NCBI RefSeq assembly: GCF_003334765.1
Contig: NZ_QOWT01000012.1
Length of the DNA stretch: 64,000 nucleotides
Source: Escherichia coli
GTDB taxonomy: Bacteria; Pseudomonadota; Gammaproteobacteria; Enterobacterales; Enterobacteriaceae
Strand: one strand, 5' to 3'
Positions within the stretch are counted from its first letter, which is position 1. Each line of letters starts with the position of its first letter. Below are positions 29,037 to 33,367 of the stretch, piece by piece. The position numbers and the translations under genes were made by a program. The notes below the pieces were generated by a model. It searched no databases and was not told the DNA's origin. It saw nothing but the letters and a program-made list of their open reading frames with translations.

Positions 29037-29582
29037 ATGAGTGCCAATGAAAACAACCTGATTTGGATCGATCTTGAGATGACCGGTCTGGATCCCGAGC
29101 GCGATCGCATTATTGAGATTGCCACGCTGGTGACCGATGCCAACCTGAATATTCTGGCAGAAGGGCCGACCATTGCAGTACACCAGTCTGATGAACAGCT
29201 GGCGCTGATGGATGACTGGAACGTGCGCACCCATACCGCCAGCGGGCTGGTAGAGCGCGTGAAAGCGAGCACGATGGGCGATCGGGAAGCTGAACTGGCA
29301 ACGCTCGAATTTTTAAAACAGTGGGTGCCTGCGGGAAAATCGCCGATTTGCGGTAACAGCATCGGTCAGGACCGTCGTTTCCTGTTTAAATACATGCCGG
29401 AGCTGGAAGCCTACTTCCACTACCGTTATCTCGATGTCAGCACCCTGAAAGAGCTGGCGCGCCGCTGGAAGCCGGAAATTCTGGATGGTTTTACCAAGCA
29501 GGGGACGCATCAGGCGATGGATGATATCCGTGAATCGGTGGCGGAGCTGGCTTACTACCGCGAGCATTTTATCAAGCTGTAA
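29037..29582 (+). CDS. orn: oligoribonuclease
   Basis: ORF 28893..29582; start trimmed to [27 protein letters not shown] (DEDD exonuclease motif I), ATG confirmed at 29037. Confidence 0.92.
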
Positions 29583-29707
29583 AATTTTTCCTGGTCACGT
29601 AAGCGCCGGAATCCACTTGCGGCGGCGTGATTTTGACGCTAAATTGAACGTCTTGCTGATAATTTCAGCACTTGAGATAAAAACGCAAAAAAAACTTTTT
29701 TGGGGGG

Positions 29708-29735
29708 TTGCAGAGGGAAAGATTTCTCGTATAAT
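29708..29735 (+). promoter_or_regulatory. sigma-70 promoter for tRNA-Gly array
   Basis: TTGCAG (29708..29713), 16-nt spacer, TATAAT (29730..29735), followed by GC-rich discriminator GCGCCTCC typical of stringently controlled stable-RNA promoters. Confidence 0.7.
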
Positions 29736-29792
29736 GCGCCTCCCGTAACGACGCAGAAATGCGAAAATTACGAAAGCAAAATTAAGTAGTAC

Positions 29793-29868
<76 letters not shown>

Positions 29869-29903
29869 AAATTTGAAAGTGCTGTAAGGCACAGACCACC
29901 CAA

Positions 29904-29979
<76 letters not shown>

Positions 29980-29997: not shown

Positions 29998-30247
29998 ATA
30001 TCCACAGCGACGCGATGCGTTATTGCTGGTTTTTGTTGTCTCTGACAAACTCTTGTAAACAGAGTTATCCACAGCCTCAGGCTGTAATCTTAATTTCAAA
30101 GAAACTTCGCACGGTGAATAGTATTTTTTTAACCTATTGATAGATAAGTTAAAAATTAAGATTCCGTTTTGTCGAGTCGATCACTTGACGATTTTATTCG
30201 TCTTGAATTGCAATGCGTTTTTATTTTTATTCACAAGCTGTGGATGA
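29998..30247. promoter_or_regulatory. datA: datA-like DnaA-box cluster (DnaA titration / DnaA-ATP hydrolysis locus)
   Basis: DnaA boxes: ATATCCACA (29998..30006), TTATCCACA perfect (30065..30073), TTATTCACA (30227..30235), TCATCCACA on minus (30239..30247); IHF consensus WATCAANNNNTTR on minus at 30130..30142. Position beside the tRNA-Gly array matches recalled datA location. Confidence 0.7.
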
Positions 30248-30248
30248 A

Positions 30249-31386
30249 TCAGGCGTCACGCGGTAACCCTTTTTCAATCACCCGAACCAGACGCTGTTTT
30301 TTCGGCAATTGCACTTCGACTATGCACGCATTTCGTCTCTCTATTTGCTGCGCAATCGCCCACGCTATGTGCTCATCGAGAAGTGGGTGCTCACCTTTAC
30401 GACTTTCCAGCGCTGTCAAAATCGTTTCATCCCAAGGGGCATTGCCTAATGCTACGGCGATATTACGCAGCCAACGCAGGTGACCAATACGACGAATCGC
30501 CGATCCTTCCGTGACTTTTAAAAACTTCTCTTCGCTCCAGGCGAATAACTCAATGAGTTCCGGTGCGTGTAGCGGCTTACGCGGGCTGAAATCCTCTTCT
30601 GTGGTGAGTTGTGAATAGCGATTCCACGGGCAGATAAGCTGGCAGTCATCGCAACCGTAAATACGGTTTCCCATTAACGGTCGCAACTCTTCCGGGATCG
30701 CCCCTTCAAGTTCGATGGTGAGATAAGAGATACAGCGGCGAGCATCGACGGTATATGGCTCGACGATGGCACCGGTCGGGCAAATCGTCATACAGGCCAC
30801 GCATTTGCCGCATCCTTCCTCGACTGGTTGATCCACGGGCAGCGGAATATCGACCAGCAATTCGCCTAAAAAGAAGAACGAACCGGCCTCGCGATTGAGG
30901 ATAAGTGAGTGCTTACCTGTCCAGCCGAGCCCAGCTTTTTCAGCTAACGGGCGCTCGAGAATAGGCGCAGAATCGACAAACGGTCTAAAATTCAGCGAAA
31001 CACAATGTTGCTGAATCATCTCGCCCAGCTTTTTGAGTCGGTTGCGCAGAAGTTTGTGATAGTCACGGCCCAGCGCATAACGGCTAACATAGCCGAGTTT
31101 GGGGTTTTTCAGCGTGCTGGCAAATGCGGCGTTAGCAGGAAGGTAATTCATCCGCACGCTGATCACGCGCAGCGTACCGGGCAATAACTCATGAGGGCGA
31201 GCGCGCAGCATACCGTGACGTGCCATCCAGTCCATTTCGCCGTGGTATTGTTTGTCCAGCCATGCTTGCAGTTTGGGCTCGGACTCGCTGAGATCGGTAT
31301 CGGTAATACCTACCTGCTGAAAGCCCAGTTCCAGCCCCCACTGTTTAATTTTTTGCGCTAACTGATTGAGATCGAGGGGCTCTGAC

Positions 31387-31388
<2 letters not shown>
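30249..31388 (-). CDS. queG: epoxyqueuosine reductase QueG
   Basis: ORF 30249..31496; start trimmed to MSEPLDLNQ; ferredoxin-type Cys clusters (CGKCVACMTICP, CDDCQLICPWN). Confidence 0.88.

Positions 31389-33367
<1,979 letters not shown>

What the first reader, a model, noticed from the sequence alone, without database searches (positions are those of the whole stretch)
31386..31389. Head-to-head overlapping start codons of divergent queG and nnr
With the trimmed starts, the queG ATG (complement of 31386..31388) and the nnr ATG (31387..31389) occupy the same CAT/ATG tetranucleotide on opposite strands. Both promoters would then lie inside the other gene's coding sequence. Start assignments are inferred from recalled protein lengths, so one start could be wrong.
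Basis: inference. Interest (0 to 1): 0.25.

Follow-up and report, generated by a model that had tools for sequence, protein, structure and literature searches.

The report
Overlapping queG and nnr start codons
Two E. coli genes that point away from each other really do begin on the same four bases (CATG), and each has its promoter inside the other gene. This is already the standard annotation, and the overlapping transcripts have already been published.

Summary
CAT (31386-31388, queG, minus strand) and ATG (31387-31389, nnr, plus strand) share the tetranucleotide CATG, so the coding sequences overlap by 2 nt. These are exactly the RefSeq starts in K-12 MG1655 and the three other E. coli genomes I inspected. 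The same arrangement aligns in 29 of the species sampled across Enterobacterales, and candidate CATG starts recur in two more distant Gammaproteobacteria.

Published data (the Conway 2014 operon map, Lybecker dsRNA and p19-captured dsRNA, all relayed by Huang 2020, plus ExcludonFinder 2025) place the nnr-operon start at window 30999 and the queG start at window 31412. That is a 413-nt antisense overlap that yields dsRNA. I found matching -10 elements at both sites. TAAAAT lies at 30986-30991 and uses queG's rare AGA codon. The extended -10 TGGTATACT lies at 31428-31420 and uses nnr's rare ATA codon.

The queG element sits at the same position in all 34 Enterobacterales loci, including those where nnr has moved away. 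nnr's first ATG has a good Shine-Dalgarno sequence (GAGGGG). The internal ATG at 31402 is a weaker rival.

I could not find ribosome-profiling or N-terminal peptide data for either start. Verdict: real, conserved, already known, low interest.

The parts
31386..31389 (.). CATG tetranucleotide holding both start codons: queG ATG is the complement of 31386-31388, and nnr ATG is 31387-31389.
   Evidence: RefSeq uses the same starts. Residue 1 of both proteins aligns to this CATG in 29 Enterobacterales species.
30249..31388 (-). queG coding sequence (epoxyqueuosine reductase, 379 aa).
31387..32934 (+). nnr (yjeF) coding sequence, 515 aa. It is the first gene of the nnr-tsaE-amiB-mutL-miaA-hfq... 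operon.
   Evidence: Operon from Conway 2014.
31374..31379 (+). GAGGGG, the Shine-Dalgarno sequence for nnr, 7 nt before its ATG. The same bases encode queG residues E3-P4-L5 on the other strand.
   Evidence: Predicted duplex with the 16S rRNA 3' end is -7.2 kcal/mol, against -3.2 for the internal ATG at 31402. GAGGGG or GAGAGG is kept in almost all nnr-adjacent Enterobacterales loci.
31420..31428 (-). Extended -10 promoter element of queG, TGGTATACT on the minus strand. On the plus strand it is nnr codons S12-I13-P14 (AGT ATA CCA), including the rare ATA codon.
   Evidence: TGnTAnnnT starts 40-52 nt before the queG ATG in all 34 Enterobacterales loci (at -40 in 28 of them), also where nnr is not adjacent (L031, L033, L036, L046). 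It is found upstream of queG in 64 of 79 loci. The published transcript end at 31412 lies 7-8 nt downstream.
31389..31412 (-). queG 5' untranslated region of 24 nt, U-rich, with no real Shine-Dalgarno sequence. The transcription start at 31412 is taken from the literature.
   Evidence: The Conway overlap end 4392114 (U00096.2) converts to window 31412. SD duplex is only -2.7 kcal/mol. The region folds less stably than shuffled sequences, z = +1.5.
30986..30991 (+). -10 element TAAAAT of the nnr-operon promoter, inside queG codons N133-F134-R135. Its first T is supplied by queG's rare AGA arginine codon.
   Evidence: GGTCTAAAATTCAGCG is invariant in 18 Enterobacteriaceae loci while neighbouring third codon positions vary. 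Codon assignment. The published promoter position 4391701 converts to window 30999, 7-8 nt downstream.
30999..31412 (.). 413-nt stretch transcribed on both strands. It is the source of double-stranded RNA.
   Evidence: Huang 2020 Table 2 and supplement: p19 clusters at 4391754-4392109 and 4391759-4392107, Lybecker dsRNA at 4391717-4392100, Conway overlap at 4391701-4392114. ExcludonFinder 2025 lists queG-nnr among 16 divergent excludons.
31399..31419 (+). Hypervariable nnr codons 5-11. On the other strand they form the variable part of the queG 5' leader. The stretch includes the alternative ATG at 31402 (M6).
   Evidence: The frame stays open in 25 of 25 unique segments. Codon 6 is ATG, GTG, TTG, CTG or ATT in Enterobacteriaceae but GAG, AAG, GAA, CGA, CAG or TGC in other families.

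Best explanation
queG and nnr are a genuine head-to-head gene pair whose start codons share one CATG. Each gene is transcribed from a promoter inside the other gene, so the two promoters face each other 413 bp apart. The nnr-operon promoter (-10 TAAAAT, start about 30999) lies 388 nt inside queG. The queG promoter is an extended -10 (TGGTATACT, start about 31412) inside nnr codons 12-14. nnr is translated from ATG 31387 using the Shine-Dalgarno GAGGGG, which is also queG codons 3-5. queG is translated from a short, unstructured 24-nt leader without a Shine-Dalgarno sequence, and that leader is the complement of nnr codons 1-8. The two mRNAs are therefore complementary across both ribosome-binding sites. 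They pair into double-stranded RNA that RNase III cuts. Shown: the sequence layout, its conservation, the published transcript ends and the published dsRNA. Inferred: that the two ATGs are the codons actually used, and that the antisense overlap lets each gene dampen the other. The inferred routes are polymerase interference, ribosome-site occlusion and RNase III decay, as in a divergent excludon.
For: The layout and the annotation agree. Residue 1 of both proteins aligns at the same CATG in 29 Enterobacterales species, and candidate CATG starts recur in L064 and L070 (Tolumonas).

Evidence for nnr M1:
- Its Shine-Dalgarno duplex is -7.2 kcal/mol, against -3.2 for M6.
- The frame from M1 is open in 25 of 25 unique segments, while the +2 frame has stops in 12 of 25. 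All 25 have a stop in +1, but that is the fixed TGA inside CATGA.
- The one length change that keeps the reading frame is a 12-nt in-frame insertion in L010.
- Codons 2-4 (ACG GAC CAT) are conserved only where nnr is adjacent. They are unrelated in L028, L031, L033 and L036.

Evidence for queG M1: the only upstream in-frame start (GTG 31496) lies beyond the mapped transcript end, and the next Met is about 50 codons in.

Evidence for the promoters: the published ends at 30999 and 31412 each lie 7-8 nt downstream of a conserved -10 element. The queG element keeps its position even without nnr.

Evidence for dsRNA: the locus is a top-20 p19 cluster. It includes 21-22-nt duplex reads covering the nnr Shine-Dalgarno sequence and the CATG itself. 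ExcludonFinder lists queG-nnr as a divergent excludon.
Against: No direct translation-start data were found in the four supplements that could be searched.

One locus, L019 (a metagenome-assembled genome), has a 1-nt insertion that closes the frame from M1 and leaves only the M6-equivalent ATG.

Conservation of the ATG at 31387 is confounded by queG's own ATG. Likewise, GAGGGG is partly explained by queG's conserved P-L-D residues.

The generic sigma-70 scan found no promoter in 30900-31900; both elements lack a good -35.

The transcript-end coordinates come second-hand from a supplementary table, and my reading of its columns is an interpretation. No experiment shows that either gene changes the other's expression.
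Confidence: 0.8

Rival explanations
1. nnr is really translated from the internal ATG at 31402 (annotated M6), or from both codons. The coding sequences would then not overlap, and 31387-31401 would be only nnr leader and queG leader.
For: L019 has a +1 insertion, so only the M6-equivalent ATG is in frame with nnr. Codon 6 is a possible start (ATG, GTG, TTG, CTG or ATT) in every Enterobacteriaceae locus. The first 11 residues are not conserved outside Enterobacterales and codons 5-11 are hypervariable.
Against: The Shine-Dalgarno sequence is weak, -3.2 against -7.2 kcal/mol. Codon 6 is GAG, AAG, GAA, CGA, CAG or TGC in Mixta, Yersiniaceae, Budviciaceae, Edwardsiella and others, with no other start before the conserved S-[I/L]-P-H motif. 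The frame from M1 is open in 25 of 25 segments, and the L010 insertion is a multiple of three. Codons 2-4 are conserved only when nnr is adjacent. L019 is a metagenome assembly, so a single-base error is possible.
Confidence: 0.12
2. The layout is real but functionally neutral. It would be a by-product of genome compaction, frozen because any change would hurt two genes at once, and the antisense RNA overlap would have no regulatory effect.
For: No experiment links queG and nnr expression. The nnr -10 element TAAAAT is kept only within Enterobacteriaceae and is lost in sister families, so at least that promoter is replaceable. In Brenneria, Pectobacterium, Photorhabdus and Xenorhabdus the pair has been separated.
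Against: Divergent overlaps are strongly under-represented in prokaryotes, which suggests they are normally selected against. The tight adjacency (overlap or spacers of about 17-22 nt) is seen in several orders of Gammaproteobacteria. dsRNA from this locus is among the most abundant of the coding-gene clusters.
Confidence: 0.35
3. queG starts elsewhere: at the upstream in-frame GTG at 31496 (415 aa) or at a downstream methionine.
For: The minus-strand ORF is open up to 31496. The annotated ATG has essentially no Shine-Dalgarno sequence, -2.7 kcal/mol.
Against: All three transcript and dsRNA data sets end at window 31398-31412, downstream of 31496 on the queG strand. The ATG and the residues M-S-x-P-x-D-L align across Enterobacterales. 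The next in-frame Met is about 50 codons in and would remove conserved sequence. The leader is unstructured, which can substitute for a Shine-Dalgarno sequence.
Confidence: 0.03

Closest known systems
Divergent excludons (overlapping 5' transcripts of neighbouring opposite-strand genes; the Listeria concept, catalogued for E. coli by ExcludonFinder, NAR 2025, PMC12288877)
   Same: Neighbouring divergent genes whose transcripts overlap at their 5' ends. The overlap yields dsRNA captured by p19 after RNase III cleavage. queG-nnr is itself one of the 16 divergent excludons listed for MG1655.
   Different: Here the coding sequences themselves touch (a 2-nt overlap), so the overlap covers both ribosome-binding sites and 388 nt of queG coding sequence. 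Mutually exclusive expression, the functional hallmark of an excludon, has not been shown for this pair.
Head-to-head (divergent) overlapping coding sequences in prokaryote annotations (Lillo and Krakauer 2007, PMC2174442; Palleja et al. 2008, PMC2478687)
   Same: The 5' ends of opposite-strand genes overlap by a few bases. This class is known and rare.
   Different: I recall that many such cases are attributed to mis-called starts; I did not read Palleja et al. here. This pair is conserved at the same CATG in 29 species and has a good Shine-Dalgarno sequence for nnr, so it is unlikely to be a calling error.
Extended -10 (TGn) sigma-70 promoters
   Same: TGGTATACT with no recognisable -35, and a transcript start 7-8 nt downstream. 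That such promoters work without a -35 is established knowledge.
   Different: The element lies entirely inside the coding sequence of the neighbouring gene and fixes three of its codons, including a rare ATA. It has not been tested by mutagenesis.
Back-to-back bidirectional promoters with symmetric -10 elements (Warman et al. 2021, recalled from my own knowledge, not read here)
   Same: Divergent genes with very little or no spacer.
   Different: The two promoters here are 413 bp apart and fire towards each other, not away from a shared -10 region. This is not that architecture.

Membership tests
Head-to-head overlapping coding sequences | Two genes on opposite strands whose 5' coding ends share bases. 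| tested here: met
   CAT 31386-31388 and ATG 31387-31389. RefSeq gives the same coordinates in four genomes.
Head-to-head overlapping coding sequences | Both annotated start codons are the ones used in translation. | tested here: inconclusive
   Comparative support is strong. No ribosome-profiling or N-terminal peptide data were retrievable, and L019 argues for M6 in one genome.
Divergent excludon | Transcripts of the two neighbouring genes overlap in antisense at their 5' ends. | tested here: met
   From the literature, not my own data: overlap at 4391701-4392114 (413 nt), dsRNA at 4391717-4392100, p19 clusters at 4391754-4392109. Listed as a divergent excludon found in at least 50% of 58 RNA-seq samples. 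Matching -10 elements found here.
Divergent excludon | The overlap forms dsRNA that is processed by RNase III. | tested here: met
   p19-captured 21-22-nt duplexes map across the nnr Shine-Dalgarno sequence and the CATG (supplementary file 7 of PMC7373196). This is literature evidence.
Divergent excludon | Expression of one gene lowers expression of the other (mutually exclusive expression). | not testable with these tools
   No expression data specific to this pair were found. It needs promoter-silencing or rnc-mutant experiments.
Noncontiguous operon yjeV-queG-nnr (as listed by ExcludonFinder) | Genes of one operon separated by an oppositely transcribed gene that overlaps the operon transcript at both ends. 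| not tested
   Only the listing in Table 1 of PMC12288877. yjeV (30213-30266, +) does overlap the queG 3' end by 18 nt. A single yjeV-to-nnr transcript was not examined.
Extended -10 promoter | A TG motif one base upstream of a -10 hexamer of the form TAnnnT. | tested here: met
   TGGTATACT at 31428-31420 on the minus strand. TGnTAnnnT is found in 64 of 79 loci, about 10% being my rough estimate for chance in a 110-nt search space.
Extended -10 promoter | Transcription starts about 7 nt downstream of the hexamer. | tested here: met
   The hexamer ends at 31420 and the published end of the queG transcript is at 31412.
Leaderless mRNA (considered for queG because of TATGGT 5 nt before its ATG) | The transcript begins at, or within a few bases of, the start codon. 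| tested here: not met
   The published transcript end is at 31412, 24 nt upstream. p19 reads on the queG strand reach at least 31405.
Back-to-back bidirectional promoter | Two divergent starts arising from one shared or symmetric -10 region, firing away from each other. | tested here: not met
   The starts at 30999 (+) and 31412 (-) fire towards each other across 413 bp.

The most novel reading that the evidence does not exclude
The shared CATG, together with fully complementary ribosome-binding regions, could be a selected reciprocal switch. It would tie the last step of queuosine tRNA modification (queG) to the nnr-tsaE-amiB-mutL-miaA-hfq superoperon. Whichever mRNA is in excess would titrate and destroy the other, through pairing over both start sites and RNase III cleavage. 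A corollary is that the queG extended -10 element, rather than protein function, has dictated the N-terminal S-[I/L]-P-H codons of Nnr across Gammaproteobacteria. Neither point has been tested, and neither appears in the papers I could read.
Probability: 0.15. Interest if true: 0.45.

Novelty: already known. Interest (0 to 1): 0.18.

Why it matters
As it stands, the finding confirms that a well-annotated locus is annotated sensibly. It also gives a clean, conserved example of a rare class, divergent coding overlap. It shows how two promoters, a Shine-Dalgarno sequence and two start codons can all be written into coding sequence, with rare codons (ATA in nnr, AGA in queG) kept because they spell -10 elements. 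If the antisense overlap proved regulatory, it would connect queuosine maturation with the operon that supplies TsaE, MiaA and Hfq. That remains speculation.

Tried and rejected
- **Generic promoter and terminator scan of 30900-31900.** It found nothing. Both real candidates lack a -35 and fall below its threshold, so the negative result is uninformative.
- **Leaderless queG mRNA from TATGGT just upstream of its ATG.** Rejected because the published transcript end is 24 nt upstream.
- **A palindrome or hairpin centred on CATG.** The flanks are not complementary (read), and the queG leader folds less stably than shuffled sequences.
- **The TTG at 31366 as the nnr start (longest ORF).** It has no Shine-Dalgarno sequence (+0.7 kcal/mol) and the codon is not conserved.
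- **Direct start-codon evidence.** The supplements of TRAINSPOTTER, Nakahigashi 2016, Fijalkowski 2024 and INRI-seq hold nothing on these genes. The only INRI-seq match for nnr is an unrelated off-target list. No supplements are held for Meydan 2019, and Weaver 2019 is not held.
- **Independent transcription-start data.** Thomason 2015 is not held. No supplements are held for Conway 2014. The held Cappable-seq files contain none of the searched coordinates.

Full report
**Observation**

The window reads ...gatcgaggggctctgaCATGacggaccatacaatgaag... with C31386, A31387, T31388 and G31389. On the minus strand, ATG (complement of 31386-31388) opens [13 protein letters not shown]... and runs to the stop at 30249, giving 379 aa. 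On the plus strand, ATG 31387-31389 opens [15 protein letters not shown]... and runs to 32934, giving 515 aa. The two start codons share 31387-31388.

The window is E. coli chromosome, and the stretch is present in 5426 of 5426 complete genomes. RefSeq annotates exactly these starts in every genome I inspected:
- K-12 MG1655, with queG at 4392928..4394067 (-) and nnr at 4394066..4395613 (+)
- a K-12 derivative
- IAI39
- strain 504239

In the 50 kb around the site there are six divergent gene pairs, with spacers of 336, 275, 41, 324, 94 and -2 nt. Only this pair overlaps. Divergent overlaps are reported as strongly under-represented in prokaryotes (Lillo and Krakauer 2007).

**Conservation**

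A scan of one genome per species returned 80 loci encoding QueG. tblastn with both E. coli proteins places QueG residue 1 and Nnr residue 1 on the same CATG in 29 species. These span Escherichia, Citrobacter, Enterobacter, Kluyvera, Cedecea, Pantoea, Mixta, Serratia, Yersinia, Rahnella, Budvicia, Acerihabitans and Edwardsiella.

An anchored print shows gatcgaggggctNNgaCATGacggaccata nearly invariant, while nnr codons 5-11 are hypervariable. Outside Enterobacterales the pair is still often adjacent. In Tolumonas (L070) and in a gammaproteobacterial MAG (L064) the candidate starts again fall on a shared CATG. In L045, L061 and L068 my candidate starts give spacers of about 17-22 nt. In Brenneria (L028), Pectobacterium (L031), Photorhabdus (L033, L046) and Xenorhabdus (L036) nnr has been displaced.

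**Which start codons are used**

For nnr, the ATG at 31387 is preceded by GAGGGG at a 7-nt spacing, with a predicted duplex of -7.2 kcal/mol with the 16S rRNA 3' end. The internal ATG at 31402 (M6) has only GGA, at -3.2 kcal/mol. Four further observations favour M1:
- The frame from M1 to the conserved S-[I/L]-P-H motif is always 11 codons and is open in 25 of 25 unique segments. The +2 frame has stops in 12 of 25. All 25 have a stop in +1, but that is the fixed TGA inside CATGA.
- The one length change that keeps the frame, in L010, is +12 nt and in frame.
- Codons 2-4 (ACG GAC CAT) are conserved only where nnr is adjacent. In the four genomes where nnr has moved, this stretch is unrelated, so its conservation belongs to nnr and not to queG.
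- Codon 6 is ATG, GTG, TTG, CTG or ATT within Enterobacteriaceae, but GAG, AAG, GAA, CGA, CAG or TGC in other families, where no alternative start exists.

One locus argues against M1. L019, a soil MAG, carries a 1-nt insertion that leaves only the M6-equivalent ATG in frame.

For queG, the only upstream in-frame start (GTG 31496) lies beyond every mapped transcript end, and the next Met is about 50 codons downstream. Its leader has no real Shine-Dalgarno sequence (-2.7 kcal/mol) but is unstructured (z = +1.5 against shuffles).

I found no ribosome-profiling or N-terminal peptide data for either gene in the supplements that could be searched. Use of the two ATGs therefore remains an inference, though a well-supported one.

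**Promoters and transcripts**

Huang et al. 2020 (mBio, PMC7373196) mapped to U00096.2. [quoted passage not shown] Their supplement adds the following:
- an exponential-phase cluster at 4391759-4392107
- the Lybecker dsRNA MS-212, classed Divergent, at 4391717-4392100
- the Conway overlap at 4391701-4392114 (413 nt), with P 4391701 for the plus-strand operon that ends at 4408049

A listed read, CAUGACGGACCAUACAAUGAAG at 4392087-4392109, fixes the conversion as window = U00096.2 coordinate - 4,360,702. This agrees minus the 1,977-nt offset between versions 3 and 2. The nnr-operon start is therefore at window 30999, 388 nt inside queG. The queG start is at 31412, 24 nt upstream of its ATG and inside nnr codon 9.

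The sequence agrees at both ends. TAAAAT at 30986-30991 ends 7-8 nt before 30999. TGGTATACT at 31428-31420 on the minus strand ends 7-8 nt before 31412. Neither has a good -35, which explains the empty generic scan.

The nnr-side element GGTCTAAAATTCAGCG is invariant in 18 Enterobacteriaceae loci although flanking third codon positions vary. Its first T comes from queG's rare AGA codon for R135. In Erwiniaceae, Yersiniaceae and others the codon is CGN and the hexamer is lost.

The queG-side element overlaps nnr S12-I13-P14 (AGT ATA CCA, with the rare ATA). TGnTAnnnT starts 40-52 nt before the queG ATG in all 34 Enterobacterales loci, at -40 in 28 of them. This includes loci where nnr is not adjacent. 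The motif occurs upstream of queG in 64 of 79 loci overall. It is therefore a queG promoter that nnr's N-terminal codons have to accommodate.

Other published notes on the locus:
- ExcludonFinder (NAR 2025) lists queG-nnr among 16 divergent excludons of MG1655, and yjeV-queG-nnr as a noncontiguous operon.
- Conway 2014 describes the 14-gene yjeF...rlmB operon with 8 promoters.
- Maciag 2011 found yjeF-yjeE-amiB-mutL transcribed about 1.9-2.1-fold better by sigma-S than by sigma-70 holoenzyme in vitro. From my own knowledge, sigma-S promoters favour a C at -13, which would fit the TC just before TAAAAT.

**Mechanism**

Three things are shown: two facing promoters 413 bp apart, complementary transcripts covering both ribosome-binding sites, and dsRNA fragments that include the nnr Shine-Dalgarno sequence and the CATG. 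It is inferred that polymerase collisions, pairing over the start sites and RNase III cleavage let each gene dampen the other. No experiment on this pair tests that. The fact that several lineages have separated the genes, and that the nnr -10 element is family-specific, keeps a neutral reading alive.

**Comparison and verdict**

The locus is a member of two known classes, head-to-head coding overlaps and divergent excludons, and it is already listed as an excludon. It is neither a back-to-back bidirectional promoter nor a leaderless mRNA. Novelty is nil at the level of the finding. The promoter-in-codon details are a small addition. Interest is low.

Noticed in passing
window 29793-29979 (and 29582-29793): The window carries only two tRNA-Gly(GCC) genes after orn (29793-29868 and 29904-29979; ARAGORN and Rfam agree). 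K-12 MG1655, IAI39 and strain 504239 each have three (glyV, glyX, glyY). One repeat unit appears to have been lost.
   Followed up: partly
window 32906-32934: tsaE starts 29 nt before the nnr stop, a same-strand overlap. nnr ends with CCC TGA (32929-32934), a context that the FSscan paper cites as giving elevated +1 frameshifting in yjeF.
   Followed up: no
window 30213-30266: The 17-codon small ORF yjeV (MRFYFYSQAVDESGVTR) converges on queG and overlaps its 3' end by 18 nt. ExcludonFinder lists yjeV-queG as a convergent excludon.
   Followed up: no
window 31399-31419: Nnr residues 5-11 are hypervariable between genera (for example TMKKNPV, KMNTNRA, NLEKYGK, SKKQIGA), although the frame and length are kept. 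The stretch sits between two nucleotide-level constraints, the queG -10 element and the conserved ACGGACCAT.
   Followed up: partly
L019 (MAG, Proteobacteria bacterium CTSoil_132), about 13 nt beyond the CATG on the nnr side: A single-base insertion puts nnr out of frame with the shared ATG, leaving the M6-equivalent ATG as the only usable start. This is either a real start shift or an assembly error.
   Followed up: partly
window 14244-14290: Rfam finds a guanidine-II (mini-ykkC) riboswitch, 50.4 bits. It lies upstream of the sugE/gdx gene, by comparison with the annotation of a near-identical strain.
   Followed up: no
window 62357-62441 and 1-59: Rfam finds an RpsF leader (110 bits) near the right end of the window. 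It also finds a tRNA cut off by the left edge, probably the tRNA-Phe annotated there in a related strain.
   Followed up: no
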